DNA of 64,000 nt from an uncultured Sphingomonadales bacterium (lineage in GTDB: Bacteria; Pseudomonadota; Alphaproteobacteria; Sphingomonadales; Sphingomonadaceae). The stretch is from positions 3,385-67,384 of the forward strand of contig CAIPUN010000083.1 in the NCBI GenBank assembly GCA_903868245.1, in the 5' to 3' direction. Shown here piece by piece: positions 2,843 to 34,819 of the stretch (the stretch's first letter is position 1; each line of letters begins with the position of its first letter). Made by a program: the position numbers and the translations under genes. The notes beneath the pieces are model-generated. The model worked only from the letters and a program-made list of their open reading frames with translations. It ran no database searches and was not told the origin of the DNA.

Positions 2843-4258
2843 TTAACTGGCAGACTCTGCCGTCGTGTTCAAGGCGCGCAAGCGTTCATTATGACTTTCA
2901 CGCGAAATCGGGAAATGGCGCAGGATCAATATGCCGATAAAACCGACGACCAAGACCGTGCACATATAATATAATGCCAGCCCATCGAGTACGGCGACAT
3001 CCACTTCGCCCGGCTTCGCATCTTGCGGAAAACTGGCAAAGCTTAGGATCATTCCAGCGGCAAAGGTACCGATGCCAACGGCGCATTTTTGCATGAAGAA
3101 ATAGCCCGCGAAAAACAGCCCTTCGGAACGCCGGCCCGTTTCTTGCTGCGATGCTTCCACCACATCCGCCATCATTGAGGATGTAAGCATCATCATACTC
3201 ACAGCCGCGCTATTGGCGATGGTCATTAACGCAAACATGAACAGTATTGAGGGATTAGACGGTGCACCGGGCACAAGGTCGAGCAGCCAGCTTCCGTATA
3301 ACGCCGCCGTGAAGGTCAGTGAGATAACTGCGAACAGGATTGCAGCGCGTTTCTTGCCCAATCGCGCGGAGACGGGCGGAACAATGACGAAGGCGATGAT
3401 GACCGTCGAAAATAGGGTTAGCGCATAATAGAGCATTTCGATCTGTTGCAGCTGCCATAGAAAAGCGAGCTGGTAATTGGTGAGCGCAAAGGTCATCCCT
3501 TGGTTGATAAGCCCAAACAAAGCTGCCGAGACGAGCCACAGAAAGGCGCGGTTGGATAATGTCGCCTTCACTTCGGCAAAAGCATGGCCAAGGCCAGCAC
3601 CGCGCGGGGCAGGGGGCGAAGGCTTTGCGATGTGCCGATGTTGCCCAAGCGCGGAGATAAGCACCGCGCCGCTCATCATAAGCGCGCCCCACACCGAATA
3701 GGCATCATATCCCACAGGGTCACTCACGCCCTTTTCGCCCGTGAAGAAAATGCCATAGGCAAAGATCAGCATGAGCAATCCACCCGCCCAGCCAAACAGG
3801 AAACGGTACCGCATCAAACGCGTGCGCTCATCATAATCGCCGGTCAGTTCAGGCACGAGCGCGATGGACGGCACTTCGCACATCGCCACCAAGGTGCGCG
3901 CCAAGACCGCGGTGCAGAAAAGCCAGATGATTGTGCCTGTTTGCCCCATTGCGGGCGGATGCCACAACAGCAGCCAGATAATGCCAAGCGGAATGGCGGC
4001 GGCATATAGCCATGGCAGGCGCCTGCCCCATTTGCTTTGCGTGCGGTCGGACAATTCGCCAATGATCGGGTCGACAAAGGCATCAAAAATCAGCGCAGCC
4101 ATGATGACGGTGCCAACGATGCCTGCATCAATCCCAAGCACCTGATTATAAAAAATCAGCAGGAAAACCGAAAAGCCATTGTCCTTTACGCCATAAGCAA
4201 CGGAGCCAAGGCCATGCATGACTTTTAAGGATCGGGGAAGGGCGACAGCAGCGACCAT
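2843..4258 (-). CDS. MFS transporter, GPH (glycoside-pentoside-hexuronide) type
   Basis: About 12 hydrophobic segments; DPIIGELSDRTQSKWGRR and ELTGDYDERT motifs. Confidence 0.88.
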   Translation of the reverse strand: MVAAVALPRSLKVMHGLGSVAYGVKDNGFSVFLLIFYNQVLGIDAGIVGTVIMAALIFDAFVDPIIGELSDRTQSKWGRRLPWLYAAAIPLGIIWLLLWHPPAMGQTGTIIWLFCTAVLARTLVAMCEVPSIALVPELTGDYDERTRLMRYRFLFGWAGGLLMLIFAYGIFFTGEKGVSDPVGYDAYSVWGALMMSGAVLISALGQHRHIAKPSPPAPRGAGLGHAFAEVKATLSNRAFLWLVSAALFGLINQGMTFALTNYQLAFLWQLQQIEMLYYALTLFSTVIIAFVIVPPVSARLGKKRAAILFAVISLTFTAALYGSWLLDLVPGAPSNPSILFMFALMTIANSAAVSMMMLTSSMMADVVEASQQETGRRSEGLFFAGYFFMQKCAVGIGTFAAGMILSFASFPQDAKPGEVDVAVLDGLALYYMCTVLVVGFIGILILRHFPISRESHNERLRALNTTAESAS

Positions 4259-4469
4259 ATTGGCTTAAATCACAAAACGCGAAAAGGCGTGTTTTACGGC
4301 GAATCGCACGATGTTTCTCTCCTGTATCCTGCGCTTATGCTAGGCGCGCAGCCCAGCCTGTCAATCGAGATGCAAATGACGTTACGGCATGCATTGCTCA
4401 CCGATAAAGACTTGCGTTTCGGCGCGTGACCGCCCAAAAATTCATCAAGCAATTAAACAGGAGAGCGTC

Positions 4470-7579: not shown

Positions 7580-7627
7580 TTGCTAATTTTGCTATCATTT
7601 TGGGAGCGCCATTAACGCGTTTCCAAC

Positions 7628-7672
7628 AAGAATGGGGCCAGTTGCAAAACATGCAACCGGCCCCATTCTTTT
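7628..7672 (+). terminator. Probable intrinsic terminator of the ACAD-ACAD-SDR operon
   Basis: AAGAATGGGGCC-A-GTTGCA-AAACA-TGCAAC-C-GGCCCCATTCTT followed by TT. Confidence 0.7.
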
Positions 7673-7721
7673 CGCAATTGCAGCAATTTCATCTTATCCC
7701 TATTTGTTTCTTAACGACATT

Positions 7722-7806
7722 GGCCGGGCGGCTCTCTCCTCCTCTCTCCCCCGCCCCCGGACAATTTTTACGGCCTCCATGCACTGCGTGGGGGCCGTAT
7801 CGTTTT
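7722..7806 (+). ncRNA. Candidate anti-SD (CU-loop) small RNA
   Basis: GC stem with a 19-nt pure C/U loop (CTCTCTCCTCCTCTCTCCC), then a 14-bp terminator-like hairpin with G-U pairs, followed by TCGTTTT. Confidence 0.55.
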
Positions 7807-7888
7807 GGGTGCATGGGATTGGCCAATTTGCGCTTAATCGCAACCAAACAGGCTAGATAAACACAAGCGGTCTCGCTAAGGCCATTGC

Positions 7889-10087
7889 ATGTCCGAAATC
7901 ACGCCCCAAATCGTCGCCGACCATGGTCTAAATGAAGAAGAATATGCGCGTATCTTGCACGCCATGGGGCGCGAACCCAATTTGGTCGAGCTTGGCATAT
8001 TCTCGGTAATGTGGTCGGAGCATTGCTCTTATAAATCCTCCCGTATCCATTTGAAAAAATTGCCGACTGAGGCCCCTTGGGTCATTTGCGGTCCCGGCGA
8101 AAATGCAGGCGTTATCGATATTGGCGATGGGCCAAATGGCACGAAGCTTGCCGCGATCTTCAAAATGGAATCGCATAATCACCCGTCATATATCGAACCC
8201 TATCAAGGCGCGGCGACGGGCGTAGGCGGTATACTGCGCGACGTGTTCACCATGGGCGCGCGGCCCGTGGCCAATATGAATGCGCTGCGTTTCGGGCGGC
8301 CCGACCATCCGAAGATGAAGCATCTGGTGCAGGGCGTAGTTGCCGGCATTGGCGGCTATGGCAATTGCGTCGGCGTACCGACCGTGGGTGGTGAAACCAA
8401 TTTTCATCCCGCTTATGATGGCAATATCCTTGTCAACGCGATGACCGTCGGCGTCGCCGACCAAGACAAGATTTTTTACTCGGCCGCGACGGGCCTTGGT
8501 AACCCCATCGTCTATGTCGGGTCAAAGACTGGCCGCGACGGCATCCACGGCGCCACGATGGCGTCGGCTGATTTCGGCGCGGATATTGAGGAGAAGCGTC
8601 CCACGGTTCAAGTGGGCGACCCCTTCACCGAAAAGCTTCTGATTGAAGCCTGCCTGGAACTGATGGCGTCGGATGCGATTGTCGCGATTCAGGATATGGG
8701 CGCCGCTGGTTTAACCAGCTCCAGCGTCGAAATGGCGACCAATGGCAAGGCGGGCATCATCCTCGACATGGACAAGGTGCCGTGCCGCGAAGAGGGCATG
8801 ACGCCCTATGAAATGATGCTGTCCGAAAGCCAGGAGCGCATGCTCATGGTGCTCAAGCCCGGCCGTGAGGAATTTGCCAAAGCCATTTTCGACAAATGGG
8901 AACTGGATTTCGCTGTCATTGGCGAAGTTACGGACACGGGCCATATGGTGCTGACATGGAAGGGCGAAATCGTTTGCGACATTCCGCTTGGCCCGCTTGC
9001 CGAAGACGCGCCTTTATACGACCGTCCCGCCGCGTCAAAGGAGGCGTATAAGGCATGGGCCAAGGTTCAGCCCTTAAGCGACATTCCCACCAGCCAAGAC
9101 CTTGGCGCAGACTTGCTTAAACTGATGGCTTGTCCCGATCTCGCCAGCCGCGCCTGGATCTGGCAGCAATATGATAGCCAAGTTGGCGGCGACACGGCGC
9201 AGCTTTCGGGCGGCGACGCCGCCGTGGTCCGCATCCACGGCACCAACCGCGCGCTGGCGATGAGCACCGATTGCACACCGCGTTATTGCTACGCCGACCC
9301 ATATGAAGGCGGCAAGCAGGCGGTGGCCGAAACCTATCGCAACATCAGCGCCGTTGGTGCAACGCCACTCGCGATCACGAACTGCCTCAATTTCGCCAAC
9401 CCGCAGCGCCCCGAAATCATGGCGCAGATAGTCGGCTGTCTGGAGGGCATGGGCGACGCCTGCCGCGCGCTTGATTACCCGATCGTGTCCGGCAATGTGT
9501 CGCTCTATAATGAAAGCAAGGCAACTGGCGGCGGCAGTGCAATTTTGCCAACGCCAGCGATTGGCGGCGTGGGCGTGCTGGAAGATGTCAGCAAAATGGC
9601 GACCATCGCGTTTAAGAACGAGGGCGACAGCATTTTCGTTATTGGCGATAGCCACGGGCATCTGGGCCAATCCTTATGGCTGCGCGAATTATATGGCCGC
9701 GAAGACGGCGCGCCGCCGCCTGTCGACCTTGCCAAGGAACGGGTCCATGCCGAATATGTGCGTCAGCTTATTCATGACGGCAAGGTGAACGCTGTGCATG
9801 ATGTTGCCGACGGCGGTTTGCTAGTCGCGTTGACCGAAATGGCGCTAGCCAGCGGTCGCGGCTGCGTACTTACGGACATAGGCGATGCCCTCACGGCCTT
9901 TGGTGAAGATCAGGCGCGTTTTGTTGTCACCAGCGCGCATGCCGACCACATTCAGGCGGCGGGTATTTCAGTCACGCAGATTGGCACGGTAAGTGGTAAT
10001 GCCGTTGTTGGCCCGGGCTTTTCCGTTGGTGTCGCAGACCTGCGTGCAGCGCATGAAAGCTTCTTCAAGGACTGGATGGAAGGCTAA
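7889..10087 (+). CDS. purL: Phosphoribosylformylglycinamidine synthase subunit PurL
   Basis: [47 protein letters not shown]. Confidence 0.98.
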
Positions 10088-32207: not shown

Positions 32208-32223
32208 TGGCACGGCGTTTGCA
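32208..32223 (+). promoter_or_regulatory. Sigma54 (-24/-12) promoter of glnK-amtB
   Basis: TGGCACGGCGTTTGCA matches TGGCACG-N4-TTGC. Confidence 0.92.
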
Positions 32224-32254
32224 TATTGCAGTGCAACACCATCAGGGGGTCTGC

Positions 32255-32593
32255 ATGAAATATATTATCGCTGTGATTAAGCCGCACAAGCTGGATCCGG
32301 TGCGCGAGGCGCTGACCGCGCTAGGCGTGTCCGGCATGACGGTGAGCGAAGTCAAAGGCTTTGGCCGGCAAAAGGGTCAAACCGAAATCTACCGTGGCGC
32401 CGAATATGCGACCAATATGGTGCCAAAGGTAAAGATCGAGATTGCTTGCGCATCCGATCAAGCTTCTGCGGTCATTGAGGCCATTCAGCATGCTGCCGAA
32501 ACCGGAGCCATTGGCGATGGCAAAATTTTCGAATTCGATCTCGCTGGTGCGTTACGCATCCGCACCGGCGACACCAACGAAACCGCGCTTTGA
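32255..32593 (+). CDS. glnK: P-II nitrogen regulator
   Basis: IKPHKLD, GFGRQKGQTEIYRGAEY, IGDGKIF; directly upstream of amtB. Confidence 0.96.
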   Translation: MKYIIAVIKPHKLDPVREALTALGVSGMTVSEVKGFGRQKGQTEIYRGAEYATNMVPKVKIEIACASDQASAVIEAIQHAAETGAIGDGKIFEFDLAGALRIRTGDTNETAL

Positions 32594-32624: not shown

Positions 32625-33989
32625 ATGTCAAAGACACTGAAATTTTTGGGCGCGGCGGGGGCGACACTGTTCGCCGCCTTGCCTGCCTTTGCGCAGGAGG
32701 TCGCGGTTGAAGCCGTCGCTGTTGCGACAGAATCGGCCGCTCCGGTTGCCGATAAAGGCGATACTGCATGGATGATGATTTCGACCGTGTTGGTCATGCT
32801 AATGATCATCCCTGGACTTGCGTTATTCTATGGCGGCTTAGTGCGCGGGAAGAATATGCTTTCGGTGCTAACCCACGTGCTGGGCGCAGCATCGCTCGCC
32901 ATGATCATATGGGTGATGTACGGTTATGGCCTCGCTTTTGGCGGTGATGCTAACCAATTCATCTCAAATGGTAAGTTTATGCTGGCTGGAGTCACGGCAG
33001 ATTCGACTGTTGCAACGTTCACCGACGGCGTTGTTATTCCGGAATATGTATTCATTGCTTTTCAGATGACTTTTGCCGCTATTACGCTGGCACTTGTTGT
33101 CGGCGGTCTGGTTGAACGCATGAAATTCTCGGCGATGATGGCCTTTGGCGTTATTTGGCTTACCATCGTTTACTTCCCCATCGCCCACATGGTTTGGTAT
33201 TTGGGGGCTGACGACGCATCGACTGGACTGCTGTTTGGCTGGGGCGCGCTTGATTTTGCTGGCGGCACCGTTGTGCACATAAACGCCGGTGTTTCCGCAC
33301 TTGTTGGTTCCATTATCCTAGGTAAGCGCCTTGGCTATCAAAAAGAAATCATGACCCCGCATTCCTTGCCCATGACACTCATCGGCACGGGCCTTTTGTG
33401 GGTGGGCTGGTTCGGTTTCAATGCCGGCTCGGCGCTTGAGGCCAATGGCGCTGCCGGACTTGCGATGATCAACACATTTGTTGCGACCGCCGCCGGTGTT
33501 CTCTTCTGGATGCTCACCGAGCGCGCTTTAGGGCACAAAGGCTCGATGCTCGGCGCCTGTTCGGGTGCTATTGCAGGATTGGTTGCCGTGACCCCTGCCG
33601 CAGGTAACGCGGGTCCATTTGGTGCGATTTTGCTTGGTGCCATTGCGGCTGCTTTCTGCTGCGTCTTCGTGATGAAGATAAAAGCCAAACTCGGCGTCGA
33701 TGACTCGCTGGACGCTTTTGGCATTCACGGTGTTGGCGGTATTATCGGCTCGGTTGGTACGGCCTTCACAATGCTTCCCATTTTGGGTGGTCCTGGTGCC
33801 GAAGATTACACTTTAGCTGCCCAATTGTGGATCCAAATTAAGGCAGTGCTGGTCGCTATCGCATGGGCAGCAATCGGTTCGGCCATTGCTTTCTACCTCG
33901 TCAAATTCACACTCGGACTTCGGGTTACTGAAGAGGTCGAGCGCGAAGGCCTCGACCTCGGTGAACATGGCGAGCGTGCCTATAACTAA
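32625..33989 (+). CDS. amtB: Ammonium transporter
   Basis: Signal peptide; LALFYGGLVR, FQMTFA, DFAGGTVVH, LWVGWFGFNAGS, DDSLDAFGIHG. Confidence 0.98.
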   Translation: MSKTLKFLGAAGATLFAALPAFAQEVAVEAVAVATESAAPVADKGDTAWMMISTVLVMLMIIPGLALFYGGLVRGKNMLSVLTHVLGAASLAMIIWVMYGYGLAFGGDANQFISNGKFMLAGVTADSTVATFTDGVVIPEYVFIAFQMTFAAITLALVVGGLVERMKFSAMMAFGVIWLTIVYFPIAHMVWYLGADDASTGLLFGWGALDFAGGTVVHINAGVSALVGSIILGKRLGYQKEIMTPHSLPMTLIGTGLLWVGWFGFNAGSALEANGAAGLAMINTFVATAAGVLFWMLTERALGHKGSMLGACSGAIAGLVAVTPAAGNAGPFGAILLGAIAAAFCCVFVMKIKAKLGVDDSLDAFGIHGVGGIIGSVGTAFTMLPILGGPGAEDYTLAAQLWIQIKAVLVAIAWAAIGSAIAFYLVKFTLGLRVTEEVEREGLDLGEHGERAYN

Positions 33990-34059
33990 TCGGGCGTGCG
34001 GCGGAAAAGTGGGAACCGGTTTTTCGCTTCGTCCGCACGATCCACCTAAAGATTTACGA

Positions 34060-34170
34060 CTTGGCGGCGGGGCATTTTCTCCTCTCCCTTAATGCCCCGC
34101 CCCCTCCCGATGTTCCTCCCGCGAACATCCAACTTACGGCCCGGACCCGATATGGTTCGGGCCTTTTTTT
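34060..34170 (+). ncRNA. Candidate multi-hairpin anti-SD sRNA (cuckoo-like) ending in an intrinsic terminator
   Basis: 11-bp stem with loop TTCTCCTCTCCCTT; linker CCCTCCC; 7-bp stem with loop CTCCCGC; 10-bp GC stem followed by T7. Confidence 0.68.
34138..34170 (+). terminator. Intrinsic terminator (first after amtB)
   Basis: GGCCCGGACC-CGATAT-GGTTCGGGCC-TTTTTTT. Confidence 0.88.
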
Positions 34171-34215
34171 GCGATGCGCGTCTGTGTGCGGGCTGTCATC
34201 CCCCCACTTCGTCCT

Positions 34216-34267
34216 CCTGAACTTGTTTGACCTGCGGTCATTTCATTCCAGGATAACAGGCGACGAT
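34216..34267 (+). repeat. 52-bp direct repeat, copy 1 (REP half with 20-nt insert)
   Basis: CCTGAACTTGTTT-GACCTGCGGTCATTTCATTC-CAGGATAACAGGCGACGAT. Confidence 0.92.
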
Positions 34268-34767
34268 GCGGAACTTAAAAAACCACTTTCCTACAAATAA
34301 CCATATAGGTTATCTGATTCGCGTCATGCAGGCCGCGGTCTAGAACGTGGGTCGGGATGATGGGAACGCTGGTGCGGGAACGCGCTGGCACGGCCGGCGC
34401 GAAAGGGTGTTTGCTTCTGCCTTATAAAAGGGCCTGTTGCATCAAGCTCTGAACAGCGCACAAAAGGCTGGGTGTAGCGGGCAACCGCCCCGTTCGTCAT
34501 GGACGGCCTTGGGGGCTTTAGGAACCTTCATCCCAAGGAAGCAGCCCAGCCAAGATAAAGGCGGCTCCTAGAATTAGACTGATGGAACAAACGAGCCTTA
34601 ATCAACCAACGCCATCAGCCGGAAGCAGCACCAGCGCTTCCGCGTCGGCCGTCCCCTTTTTTCTATGCGTGTAGACGCGCGCCAATTTTGTAGGAAATAA
34701 TGTTACATGTGTAGGAAATTATGGTGTTGGCTCCAACACCGTCACCCTGAGACACCTACAACGTTAC

Positions 34768-34819
34768 CCTGAACGTGTTTGACCTGCGGTCATTTCATTC
34801 CAGGATAACAGGCGACGAT
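34768..34819 (+). repeat. 52-bp direct repeat, copy 2
   Basis: Matches copy 1 at 51 of 52 positions (AACGTG vs AACTTG). Confidence 0.92.

What the first reader, a model, noticed from the sequence alone, without database searches (positions are those of the whole stretch)
33990..34170. Triple-CUCCC anti-SD RNA at the 3' end of the NtrC/sigma54 glnK-amtB transcript
Seen: the first terminator after amtB is 180 nt downstream. Before it come a non-terminating hairpin (33995-34039), a perfect 11-bp stem with loop UUCUCCUCUCCCUU, a single-stranded CCCUCCC linker, a 7-bp stem with loop CUCCCGC, and a GC stem + U7. A CTAAAG -10-like hexamer at 34046 could also give an independent TSS near 34059. Known: cuckoo/alpha-r14 sRNAs have serial hairpins with anti-SD loops, and Sinorhizobium NfeR1 is NtrC-controlled. 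Inference: a nitrogen-starvation-induced, 3'UTR-derived sRNA that blocks SD sites. SDs in this window are often GGAGAG-type (der, ACAD, ihfB), matching the CUCUCC loop. This may be an undescribed Sphingomonadales arm of the Ntr regulon.
Basis: partly seen in the sequence, partly recalled or inferred. Interest (0 to 1): 0.72.

Follow-up and report, generated by a model that had tools for sequence, protein, structure and literature searches.

The report
Conserved anti-SD RNA tail of amtB
The end of the ammonium-transporter (glnK-amtB) message carries a structured RNA tail with ribosome-binding-site-complementary loops. It is conserved across the whole order Sphingomonadales, is absent from Rfam and from the literature I could search, and is most likely a nitrogen-starvation-linked regulatory RNA whose function has not been tested.

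Summary
After the amtB stop (33989) come an imperfect hairpin, an 11-bp hairpin with loop UUCUCCUCUCCCUU, a CCCUCCC linker, a 7-bp hairpin with loop CUCCCGC, and an intrinsic terminator with U7 (34138-34170).

It is a conserved RNA, not a chance feature:
- The hairpin GUUC-CUCCYGC-GAAC plus terminator follows amtB in 25 of about 30 other Sphingomonadales genomes sampled.
- In a metagenome pattern scan, 108 of the 111 genuine copies follow amtB. One contig has copies behind two different amt paralogues.
- The 15-nt core is invariant while the stems covary (96-97% paired, 0 of 500 shuffles as good).
- The upstream hairpin carries a long CU-rich loop in about 60% of members.
- A sigma54 -24/-12 promoter precedes glnK in the window and in every relative whose glnK start is held.
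- RNA-seq contigs join the amtB coding sequence to the element.
- Rfam 15 has no family for it, and I found no paper describing it.

Best reading: a 3'UTR-embedded, cuckoo-like anti-Shine-Dalgarno RNA made with the nitrogen-limitation transcript. It probably acts in trans after processing. Acting in cis on its own message is a serious rival.

Not shown: a stable small species, NtrC dependence, or any target. The proposed own promoter and the GGAGAG-type target claim are unsupported.

The parts
32209..32224 (+). sigma54-type promoter (-24 TGGCAC / -12 TTGCA) of the glnK-amtB unit
   Evidence: Sequence TGGCACGGCGTTTGCA. The same TGGCAC-N5-TTGC element precedes glnK in every Sphingomonadales locus whose glnK start is held.
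32255..32593 (+). glnK (PII protein)
   Evidence: Pfam P-II, E 1e-27. ATG at 32255 with SD AGGGGG.
32625..33989 (+). amtB (ammonium transporter)
   Evidence: Pfam Ammonium_transp, E 2e-111. 54-82% identical to Sphingomonadales AmtB.
33992..34043 (+). HP1: imperfect hairpin, an optional lineage-specific module
   Evidence: Fold. The core AAAGUGGGAACCGGUUU is shared only with L019 (Altererythrobacter), at the same place and with different outer stem sequences. It is absent from the other members.
34044..34062 (+). Single-stranded spacer ending in the family-conserved YUU that precedes HP2; candidate 5' processing zone.
   Evidence: UU(GGC) is conserved at 90% or more in 55 aligned members. No promoter-like site was scored here. 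Processing is inferred, not shown.
34063..34104 (+). HP2: GC-rich hairpin with the 14-nt pyrimidine loop UUCUCCUCUCCCUU (34077-34090)
   Evidence: Inverted repeat I3 and fold. In the 55-member alignment 8 of 12 stem pairs show compensatory changes. CU-rich loops occur in 81 of 130 distinct elements.
34102..34108 (+). CCCUCCC linker (third anti-SD-like motif; lineage-specific)
   Evidence: A similar linker occurs only in a few relatives such as L043, L001 and L040.
34109..34129 (+). HP3: the universal core hairpin GAUGUUC-CUCCCGC-GAACAUC (family consensus N-GUUC-CUCCUGC-GAAC-N)
   Evidence: G9-C16, G18-G20 and A22 are invariant in the alignment of 26 genomes (the window and 25 relatives). The U-A pair becomes U-G in 10 of 26. 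The outer pair is CG 24, UA 23, UG 8 with no breaks in 55.
34130..34137 (+). A-rich spacer CAACUUAC between HP3 and the terminator (family: ACAAACUNAAA)
   Evidence: Alignments. A role as an Hfq contact is inference only.
34138..34170 (+). Intrinsic terminator: 10-bp GC-rich stem, 6-nt loop, U7
   Evidence: Terminator scan. Stem covariation. The covariance model scores 64.9 bits here.

Best explanation
The region 34044-34170 is the window's copy of an order-wide (Sphingomonadales) RNA module built into the 3' untranslated end of glnK-amtB (ammonium transporter) messages. The module has three parts: an optional GC-rich hairpin with a long CU-rich loop; an invariant small hairpin that displays UUCCUCCYGCG, which contains the 16S-like CCUCCU anti-Shine-Dalgarno hexamer; and an intrinsic terminator with a U tail.

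Because glnK-amtB is driven by a sigma54 (-24/-12) promoter, the RNA is made when nitrogen is limiting. The most likely mechanism is as follows. The tail is cut from the mRNA just 5' of HP2, giving roughly 105-115 nt in this organism. It persists because of its stable hairpins and terminator. Through its exposed pyrimidine loops it pairs with purine-rich ribosome-binding sites of other mRNAs and lowers their translation. This would make it a nitrogen-regulon, 3'UTR-derived, cuckoo-like anti-SD sRNA.

Shown here: the structure, its conservation and covariation, its strict linkage to amt genes, the sigma54 promoter, and co-transcription with amtB. Inferred: processing, stability, trans action, NtrC dependence and the targets.
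For: (1) Anatomy and fold.

(2) Conservation. The element follows amtB in 25 of about 30 other Sphingomonadales loci, plus a variant in Polymorphobacter. In 49 non-Sphingomonadales amtB loci there are only terminator-level hits.

(3) Linkage to amt genes. The pattern GTTCCTCCTGCGRAC-N(2-30)-GGCCGG gave 120 metagenome loci. Of these, 106 have an amtB 3' end 7-136 nt upstream. Two more are cut contigs that still show the AmtB C-terminus. One follows a lone glnK. Two follow other or unidentified sequence. Nine are chance hits inside coding sequence without a terminator. L143 carries two copies, behind a 32%-identical amt paralogue and behind a 70%-identical amtB.

(4) RNA-level selection on the + strand. 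Paired cells are 96.1% and 96.9%, against 85.7% and 87.4% in shuffles. Covariation scores are 0.307 and 0.300, against 0.130 and 0.122. In both alignments 0 of 500 shuffles reach the observed values, and slid controls drop to 31-55% paired. U-A to U-G changes keep pairing only in the + strand RNA.

(5) The core GUUCCUCCUGCGAAC is invariant across an order in which AmtB itself is only 53-82% identical.

(6) The sigma54 promoter is conserved upstream of glnK.

(7) Co-transcription. RNA-seq or metatranscriptome contigs run from amtB coding sequence into the element (window: X1 33576-34215 and X2 33899-34122; Sphingopyxis-like isolates X53 and X59-61).

(8) There is no room for an intergenic promoter in most members.

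[quoted passage not shown] GlnZ is released from the NtrC-controlled glnA 3'UTR (PMC9731577). NfeR1 silences ntrB through anti-SD loops (PMC10746234).
Against: - No read-level data were available, only assembled contigs. So no 5' end, no size and no evidence of a separate stable small RNA. The contigs also continue past the terminator, which fits read-through or DNA carry-over.
- No target was found. The one strong complementarity in the window (54154, - strand) lies in a spurious antisense ORF. Scans of about 0.9 Mb of related loci for CGCAGGAGG found mostly the element's own reverse strand.
- The glnK and amtB SDs of these organisms (AAGGGGGC and GAAGGGGGAAA) are themselves complementary to UUCCUCCU, so action in cis is equally compatible with the sequence.
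- Invariance over 15 nt is more than SD pairing needs, and would also fit a protein-binding site.
Confidence: 0.45

Rival explanations
1. A cis-acting 3'UTR element. The anti-SD loops fold back onto the purine-rich ribosome-binding sites of glnK and/or amtB in the same mRNA. This would tune their translation or their ratio, or trigger decay, as the UCCCC motif of the Staphylococcus aureus icaR 3'UTR does with its own SD (from my own knowledge: Ruiz de los Mozos et al. 2013).
For: - The element is tied to amt operons, including a 32%-identical paralogue and one lone glnK, as expected if the partner is in the same transcript.
- The glnK SD AAGGGGGC and the amtB SD GAAGGGGGAAA are conserved across the order. 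They can pair with UUCCUCCU over 8 bp with one G-U.
- In several members HP3 begins right after, or 7-13 nt after, the stop codon, so these copies are minimal 3'UTRs rather than sRNA-like genes.
- RNA contigs show the element attached to the coding sequence.
Against: - The loop change U to C in the window and in L043 (CCUCCCGCG) is not matched by an obvious compensating change in their glnK or amtB SDs.
- The GCG part of the invariant loop has no counterpart in those SDs.
- The long CU-rich HP2 loops resemble multi-target cuckoo sRNAs.
- Any SD is complementary to an anti-SD, so the complementarity is not specific.
Confidence: 0.25
2. A protein-recognition or stability element. The invariant 5-bp / 7-nt-loop hairpin and the pyrimidine loop are bound by a protein (an RNA chaperone, ribosomal protein S1, an RNase adaptor or an N-regulatory factor). 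Alternatively they simply block 3' exonucleases. Either way they would set the lifetime or localisation of the amtB mRNA without base-pairing to other RNAs.
For: - Invariance of all 15 nt of GUUCCUCCUGCGAAC, including stem bases, across an order exceeds what a 6-nt SD-pairing seed needs and is typical of a protein site.
- The hairpin always sits at a short distance (about 2-16 nt) from the terminator.
- Sphingomonas proper keeps HP3 but has plain short-loop hairpins, or none, upstream.
Against: - The loop is exactly the anti-SD hexamer, and HP2 loops are repeatedly CU-rich with CCUCCUC-type motifs. That is a strong coincidence if pairing is irrelevant.
- Pure exonuclease protection would not constrain loop sequence.
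- No candidate protein is linked in the neighbourhood, and downstream genes vary.
Confidence: 0.17
3. An independent sRNA gene with its own promoter between amtB and HP2 or inside the amtB 3' coding end. It would be transcribed separately from amtB.
For: - In the window there are 73 nt (including HP1) between the stop codon and HP2.
- Type-I 3'UTR sRNAs with internal promoters are known elsewhere.
- A stand-alone hairpin of the same style, with a plausible sigma70-type promoter, exists at window 7716-7806.
Against: - No promoter-like site was scored at 34040-34060, and CTAAAG is a poor -10.
- The spacer is not conserved. In most relatives HP2 starts about 10-20 nt after the stop codon.
- Contigs link the coding sequence and the element.
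Confidence: 0.08
4. A DNA-level operator: GTTC-N7-GAAC is an inverted repeat bound by a dimeric transcription factor downstream of amtB.
For: The invariant core is a short palindrome.
Against: - Ten of 26 genomes have GTTC...GGAC. This keeps RNA pairing (U-G) but breaks DNA symmetry.
- Flanking stem pairs covary.
- The asymmetric spacer is invariant.
- Orientation and distance to the terminator are fixed relative to amtB, while downstream genes differ.
Confidence: 0.03

Closest known systems
Cuckoo RNA family (CcsR1-4/RSs0680, alpha-r14 including NfeR1; Rfam RF02791, RF02344)
   Same: - Modular hairpins that expose CU-rich anti-SD motifs in their loops. Many members' HP2 loops read (U)CCUCCUCUCCUCC.
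- An alphaproteobacterial RNA that ends in a terminator.
- CcsR RNAs are likewise co-transcribed with an upstream ORF (PMC4615179).
- NfeR1 is tied to the nitrogen stress response and silences ntrB through its anti-SD loops (PMC10746234).
   Different: - Different order. The cuckoo family was mapped only in Rhizobiales and Rhodobacterales (PMC4615179).
- Different context: the amtB 3' end, rather than a DUF1127 gene or a free-standing locus.
- The universal hairpin carries CCUCCUGCG, not CCUCCUCCC.
- Only one or two motif hairpins, and one is optional.
- Rfam scores are far below threshold (CcsR1 18.5 against 65.3; no ar14 hit at the amtB site).
- NfeR1 has its own sigma70 promoter, is activated by LsrB and is repressed by NtrC.
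GlnZ (enterobacterial sRNA processed from the glnA 3'UTR)
   Same: A regulatory RNA embedded in the 3'UTR of a core NtrC/sigma54 nitrogen-assimilation gene. It shares the mRNA's terminator and is therefore induced by nitrogen limitation (PMC9731577; bioRxiv 10.1101/2022.04.01.486790).
   Different: No sequence or structural relation. Different host gene (glnA rather than amtB) and different class of bacteria. The GlnZ seed is not an anti-SD loop motif. GlnZ processing, Hfq binding and targets (sucA and others) are experimentally shown; here none are.
MmgR / suhB RNA (alpha-r8, Rfam RF00519), the sRNA studied in Sphingopyxis granuli TFA as SuhB
   Same: An alphaproteobacterial sRNA with a small hairpin, a CCUCCC motif and a terminator. 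From my own knowledge, mmgR transcription in S. meliloti responds to NtrC. A weak Rfam hit overlaps HP3 and the terminator (19.9 bits).
   Different: The score is below the gathering threshold (41). The conserved UUUCCUCCCUAGACUU single-stranded block of MmgR is deleted in the alignment. MmgR is a free-standing gene, not an amtB 3'UTR. The TFA preprint does not mention amtB.
icaR 3'UTR anti-SD element of Staphylococcus aureus (from my own knowledge)
   Same: A C-rich anti-SD motif in a 3'UTR that can pair with the SD of the same mRNA. This is the model for the cis rival.
   Different: Unrelated organism and sequence. For amtB no 5'-3' interaction has been shown. The sphingomonad element is a conserved multi-hairpin module next to the terminator.

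Membership tests
Cuckoo RNA family (CcsR / alpha-r14 / NfeR1) | Two or more adjacent stem-loops (at least 6 bp) each carrying the CCUCCUCCC motif or an accepted variant in the loop (PMC4615179) | tested here: inconclusive
   The window's HP2 loop is UUCUCCUCUCCCUU and its HP3 loop is CUCCCGC. Neither contains CCUCCUCCC. Many relatives have CCUCCUCUCCUCC in HP2, but HP3 is always CCUCCYGCG. The paper's full list of accepted variants (its Fig. 3C) was not available to me.
Cuckoo RNA family (CcsR / alpha-r14 / NfeR1) | Scores at or above the Rfam gathering threshold for RF02791 (65.3 bits) or RF02344 (58.8 bits) | tested here: not met
   CcsR1 scores 18.5 bits at 34019-34105, and there is no ar14 hit at E up to 10 in 33900-34400. 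There are 0 gathering-level hits in the window (other than two tRNAs) and in 20 related loci.
Cuckoo RNA family (CcsR / alpha-r14 / NfeR1) | [quoted passage not shown] | tested here: not met
   The element is in Sphingomonadales and directly follows amtB in 106-108 of 111 genuine metagenome copies.
3'UTR-derived sRNA (processed type, e.g. GlnZ, CpxQ, CcsR) | Lies between the stop codon and the mRNA's own intrinsic terminator, on the same strand | tested here: met
   Stop at 33989; terminator at 34138-34170 (+), the first after amtB. The layout is the same in all relatives.
3'UTR-derived sRNA (processed type, e.g. GlnZ, CpxQ, CcsR) | Co-transcribed with the upstream gene and lacking its own promoter | tested here: inconclusive
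   RNA contigs span the coding-sequence/UTR junction. No promoter was scored. The intergenic space is too short for a promoter in most members. However, contigs cannot exclude an internal start site, and DNA carry-over cannot be excluded.
3'UTR-derived sRNA (processed type, e.g. GlnZ, CpxQ, CcsR) | A discrete, stable small species generated by RNase cleavage, which regulates other mRNAs by base-pairing | not testable with these tools
   Only assembled contigs of RNA runs were available, with flat depth and no read ends.
MmgR / suhB RNA (RF00519) | Rfam gathering score of 41 bits, with the conserved UUUCCUCCCUAGACUU block | tested here: not met
   19.9 bits. The block is deleted in the alignment.
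sigma54 (RpoN)-dependent nitrogen-regulated glnK-amtB operon | -24 GG / -12 GC promoter (TGGCAC-N5-TTGC) upstream of glnK, with glnK and amtB adjacent on one strand | tested here: met
   TGGCACGGCGTTTGCA at 32209-32224, 31 nt before the glnK ATG. The equivalent element is present in every Sphingomonadales locus whose glnK start is held. Dependence on NtrC itself was not tested.
Intrinsic (Rho-independent) terminator | GC-rich stem-loop followed directly by a U tract | tested here: met
   10-bp stem with 8 GC pairs, 6-nt loop, U7. The stem covaries.

The most novel reading that the evidence does not exclude
The amt-operon tail may be the founding example of a nitrogen-starvation 'SD-masking' RNA in Sphingomonadales. 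In this reading an NtrC/sigma54-driven transporter mRNA releases, or itself acts as, a broad anti-SD regulator that couples ammonium scarcity to translation of many SD-dependent mRNAs.

It may have dedicated partner RNAs. In Sphingopyxis a conserved small hairpin RNA that displays CAGGAGGGGAGAG, complementary to both loops, sits 165 nt to 2.7 kb downstream.

CU-rich anti-SD motifs also occur behind amtB in scattered Rhodobacterales, Hyphomicrobiales, Beta- and Gammaproteobacteria. So the link between amtB 3' ends and anti-SD RNA could be much older than the order.
Probability: 0.15. Interest if true: 0.8.

Novelty: new member of a known kind. Interest (0 to 1): 0.6.

Why it matters
- Sphingomonads are abundant freshwater, soil, plant-associated and pollutant-degrading bacteria in which only one sRNA (SuhB in S. 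granuli TFA) has been characterised (bioRxiv 10.64898/2025.12.09.693200).
- This element is an order-wide, covariation-supported RNA family physically wired to the sigma54 nitrogen regulon. It is easy to test in several cultured species.
- If it acts in trans, it would extend the GlnZ principle (nitrogen-assimilation mRNAs that shed regulators from their 3' ends) to Alphaproteobacteria and to the ammonium transporter. It would also extend cuckoo-type anti-SD regulation beyond Rhizobiales and Rhodobacterales.
- If it acts in cis, it would be a conserved bacterial example of 3'UTR-to-SD feedback on a transporter operon.
- Either way it merits an Rfam entry, and it would improve annotation of amtB 3' ends.

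Tried and rejected
- **Rfam.** I ran gathering-level scans of the window and of 20 related loci, and permissive scans of 33900-34400 and 7580-7890. These gave only sub-threshold hits (beta-proteobacterial toxic sRNA, VrrA, suhB, CcsR1, ar14), driven mostly by the terminator.
- **Read-level expression.** All RNA runs found were held as contigs only. Laying them shows presence and linkage to the amtB coding sequence, but no ends or relative abundance. X9 holds all the sRNA words but little of amtB; this turned out to be a single 151-nt contig at depth 2, so it is not evidence of accumulation.
- **Exact-protein lookup.** Looking up the window's AmtB sequence found nothing.
- **Targets.** Duplex energies against crude initiation regions of the window gave a best hit, 54154 (-), that is a spurious antisense ORF inside a tamA-like gene. 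Scanning about 0.9 Mb of related loci for GCAGGAGG or CGCRGGAGG returned mostly the element's own reverse strand. I claim no target.
- **Wider enrichment.** I asked whether anti-SD motifs behind amtB are enriched outside Sphingomonadales. The count is 22 of 49, against 16.8 +/- 3.0 in composition-matched shuffles (59 of 1000 shuffles reach it), and 5 of 49 on the reverse strand. This is suggestive only.
- **Minus-strand reading.** AGGAGG followed by a small ORF on the minus strand was rejected. The apparent ORFs are not conserved, the terminator and wobble pairs fit only the + strand, and the orientation always follows amtB.
- **HP1 as a repeat family.** No other copy is in the window, and only L019 among the 200 loci has one.
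- **Literature.** I searched for an amtB 3'UTR RNA, for sphingomonad sRNAs, and for the core sequence itself. No description was found in the held library.
Full report
**1. What is in the window.**

A PII gene (glnK, 32255-32593) and an ammonium transporter gene (amtB, 32625-33989) lie in tandem on the + strand (Pfam). Thirty-one bases upstream of the glnK ATG sits TGGCACGGCGTTTGCA (32209-32224), a canonical sigma54 -24/-12 element.

- an imperfect hairpin HP1 (33992-34043);
- a single-stranded spacer;
- HP2, with a perfect 11-bp stem (34066-76 with 34091-101) and loop UUCUCCUCUCCCUU;
- the linker CCCUCCC (34102-08);
- HP3, GAUGUUC-CUCCCGC-GAACAUC (34109-29);
- an 8-nt spacer;
- a 10-bp GC-rich terminator hairpin with U7 (34138-70).

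The minimum-energy fold reproduces these helices (-77.6 kcal/mol, z = -4.45). The next genes (bactofilin, M23 peptidase) are on the opposite strand, so the terminator closes the glnK-amtB unit.

On this window alone the motif statistics are unimpressive. Three CUCCC in 45 nt arise in 5% of simulated windows. The question therefore had to be settled by comparison with relatives.

**2. Comparative evidence in genomes.**

I fetched the 80 best amtB loci from one-genome-per-species contigs and read the DNA after each stop codon.
- In 25 Sphingomonadales genomes the stop codon is followed, on the same strand, by N-GUUC-CUCCUGC-GAAC-N and then a terminator. The genera include Sphingopyxis, Sphingomonas, Blastomonas, Rhizorhapis, Rhizorhabdus, Novosphingobium, Sphingorhabdus, Pelagerythrobacter, Aurantiacibacter, Erythrobacter and Altererythrobacter.
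- Polymorphobacter has a variant.
- About five Sphingomonadales or unassigned loci lack it.
- None of the 49 non-Sphingomonadales loci has it.

In the 26-sequence alignment, bases G9-C16, G18-G20 and A22 are invariant. Only the window and Sphingorhabdus buctiana read CCUCCCGCG instead of CCUCCUGCG. AmtB itself is only 53-82% identical across these genomes, so the non-coding core is better conserved than the protein.

**3. Linkage to amt genes.**

They break down as follows:
- 106 have the 3' end of an amtB homologue 7-136 nt upstream of HP3 (mode about 65 nt).
- Two more are contigs cut just upstream that still encode the AmtB C-terminus.
- One follows a lone glnK.
- Two follow other or unidentified sequence.
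- Nine are chance hits inside coding regions with no terminator.

So 108 of the 111 genuine copies follow amtB. Contig L143 has two glnK-amt operons in tandem, one with an Amt paralogue only 32% identical to the window's protein, and each ends with its own copy. The element therefore goes with ammonium-transporter operons as such.

**4. Structure is under selection, at the RNA level, on the + strand.**

For HP3 plus the terminator (26 genomes):
- 96.1% of cells pair, against 85.7% in shuffles.
- The covariation score is 0.307, against 0.130.
- 0 of 500 shuffles reach the observed values.
- Sliding the partner by 1-3 columns drops pairing to 31-51%.

The inner GUUC/GAAC stem never changes, except that U-A becomes U-G in ten Sphingomonas-type genomes. 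That change preserves an RNA helix only on the + strand and breaks the DNA palindrome.

For the 55 members with a CU-loop HP2:
- 96.9% of cells pair, against 87.4% in shuffles.
- The covariation score is 0.300, against 0.122, with 0 of 500 shuffles as high.
- Eight of the 12 HP2 pairs show double changes. One pair, for example, reads GC 15, CG 12, UA 10, UG 5, AU 2.
- The outer HP3 pair is CG 24, UA 23, UG 8, with no break.

**5. Which parts are universal.**

HP3 and the terminator are universal. HP2 is present in most members. Its loop is a long pyrimidine tract with CCUCCUC/CUCUCC-type motifs in 81 of 130 distinct elements (for example UCCUCCUCUCCUCC or CUCUCUCCUCUCC). In Sphingomonas proper it has a short ordinary loop or is missing, and HP3 then starts right after the stop codon.

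The CCCUCCC linker and HP1 are lineage-specific. The HP1 core is shared only with Altererythrobacter L019. 'Triple CUCCC' therefore describes this lineage, not the family.

A short single-stranded AGYUU immediately 5' of HP2 is conserved. It is a plausible RNase E context, which is inference.

**6. Transcription.**

The sigma54 -24/-12 element precedes glnK in the window and in every Sphingomonadales locus whose glnK start is held. Expression under nitrogen limitation is therefore a strong inference from the well-established NtrBC/sigma54 control of glnK-amtB, but it was not tested here.

Contigs from metatranscriptomes that match the window join amtB coding sequence to the element (X1 33576-34215, X2 33899-34122). 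Contigs from isolate RNA-seq of Sphingopyxis-like organisms run from amtB through the element to the U tract and beyond. This supports co-transcription.

It cannot show a separate small RNA. Only assemblies were available, their depth is flat, and some continue past the terminator.

It lies in a spacer that relatives lack. In most members there is no room for an intergenic promoter.

**7. Known families.**

Rfam 15 gives no gathering-level match in the window or in 20 related loci. The permissive scan lists only weak hits:
- CcsR1: 18.5 bits against a threshold of 65.3.
- suhB/MmgR: 19.9 bits against 41.
- Several others that align mainly to the terminator.

The cuckoo family is defined by two or more hairpins with CCUCCUCCC loops. 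It was mapped only in Rhizobiales and Rhodobacterales, mostly next to one orthologous gene (PMC4615179). The present element works like a cuckoo RNA on paper, but it fails the score, taxon and context tests.

NfeR1 has its own sigma70 promoter, is activated by LsrB and repressed by NtrC, and silences ntrB (PMC10746234). GlnZ is the closest functional precedent for an NtrC-regulon 3'UTR sRNA (PMC9731577).

Six literature searches, including one for the core sequence itself, found no description of an amtB 3'UTR RNA. A 2025 preprint states that SuhB is the only sRNA characterised in S. granuli TFA, and it does not mention amtB.

**8. Mechanism.**

I commit to this model: a 3'UTR-embedded anti-SD RNA, made with the nitrogen-limitation transcript, most likely processed 5' of HP2 and acting in trans on purine-rich ribosome-binding sites (confidence 0.45).

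The main rival is action in cis (0.25). The glnK and amtB SDs in this order are AAGGGGGC and GAAGGGGGAAA, which can pair with UUCCUCCU. The tight linkage to amt operons also fits a partner in the same molecule.

The other rivals:
- A protein-binding or stability role (0.17). It is suggested by 15-nt invariance, which exceeds what SD pairing needs.
- An independent promoter (0.08).
- A DNA operator (0.03).

I found no credible target. The only strong complementarity in the window is in a spurious antisense ORF. The GGAGAG-SD argument was not borne out by a crude count.

**9. Verdict.**

The existence of a conserved, structured, amt-linked RNA family in Sphingomonadales is very secure. Its being a trans-acting, NtrC-dependent sRNA is plausible but unproven.

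It is a new member of a known kind (3'UTR-embedded anti-SD regulatory RNA), undescribed as far as Rfam 15 and the searchable literature show. Interest is about 0.6.

Noticed in passing
window 7716-7806 (+), hairpin 7726-7756: A second hairpin of the same style: CAUUGGCCGGGCGG, a 19-nt loop CUCUCUCCUCCUCUCUCCC, then CCGCCC. It is followed by a GC-rich hairpin and UAUCGUUUU. It lies in the intergenic region after the upstream gene's terminator and before a purL-like gene. A sigma70-like TTGCAG-N16-CTATTT sits just upstream. The fold has z = -3.84, and the weak Rfam ar14 hit is 18.4 bits (threshold 58.8). This is a possible stand-alone cuckoo-like sRNA or 5' leader.
   Followed up: partly
window 34203-34267 and 34755-34819: A 65-nt direct repeat (89% identical) flanks a 552-nt segment between the amtB terminator and the bactofilin gene. 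A metatranscriptome contig (X1) joins 34215 directly to 34768, so a population variant lacks the segment (an indel through the repeats). Copy 1 also contains GUCCUCCUGAAC (about 34209-34222), a fourth anti-SD-like motif just past the terminator.
   Followed up: partly
L001 7134-7199, L003 4898-4963, L093 12335-12400, L102 1966-2031, L166 1043-1108, L139 4178-4243, L120 387-452: In Sphingopyxis-type contigs a conserved small hairpin, UUUCAGG-AGGGGAGAG-CCUGAAA plus terminator, lies on the amtB strand 165 nt to 2.7 kb downstream of the amtB element. Upstream of it is a conserved CAACAUGACAUUAAUAUGGCAUUCAUUG box. It contains CAGGAGG (complement of the HP3 loop CCUCCUG) and GGAGAG (complement of the HP2 loop). 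It could be a partner, sponge or target RNA.
   Followed up: partly
window 33992-34043 and L019 about 4220-4275: HP1 shares the core GAAAAGUGGGAACCGGUUU with Altererythrobacter sp. GH1-8 at the same position after amtB, with different outer stems. A similar GAAGUGGAUACCGGUUCG occurs after amtB in a Bradyrhizobium locus (L045). It may be an optional or mobile RNA module.
   Followed up: partly
L020, L023, L028, L033, L068, L042 (Rhizobiaceae/Phyllobacteriaceae amtB 3' regions): A different conserved layout follows amtB: a GC-rich hairpin, then a hairpin beginning CCCGUCGCGGC, then a terminator. This suggests that rhizobial amtB 3'UTRs carry their own conserved structured element.
   Followed up: no
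L066 4518-4591 (Tabrizicola), L060, L035, L051, L054, L057, L077, L080: CU-rich anti-SD motifs also occur right after amtB outside Sphingomonadales. Examples are two UCCUCCCC-loop hairpins in a Rhodobacterales genome and CCUCCUCCC directly after the stop codon in a Hyphomicrobiales MAG. The enrichment over composition-matched shuffles is only marginal (22 of 49 against 16.8; 59 of 1000 shuffles reach it).
   Followed up: partly
L143 3229-6917; L012 and L016 downstream of the element: Tandem nitrogen operons. L143 has glnK, a divergent amt paralogue and the element, then glnK, amtB and the element. In L012 and L016 a second glnK starts about 100-150 nt after the element.
   Followed up: partly
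L114 9031-9065 (-): A 13-bp hairpin with loop UCUCCUCCC followed by a terminator-like hairpin, about 4 kb from the amtB element in a Novosphingobium-like contig. This is another candidate free-standing cuckoo-like sRNA in Sphingomonadales.
   Followed up: no
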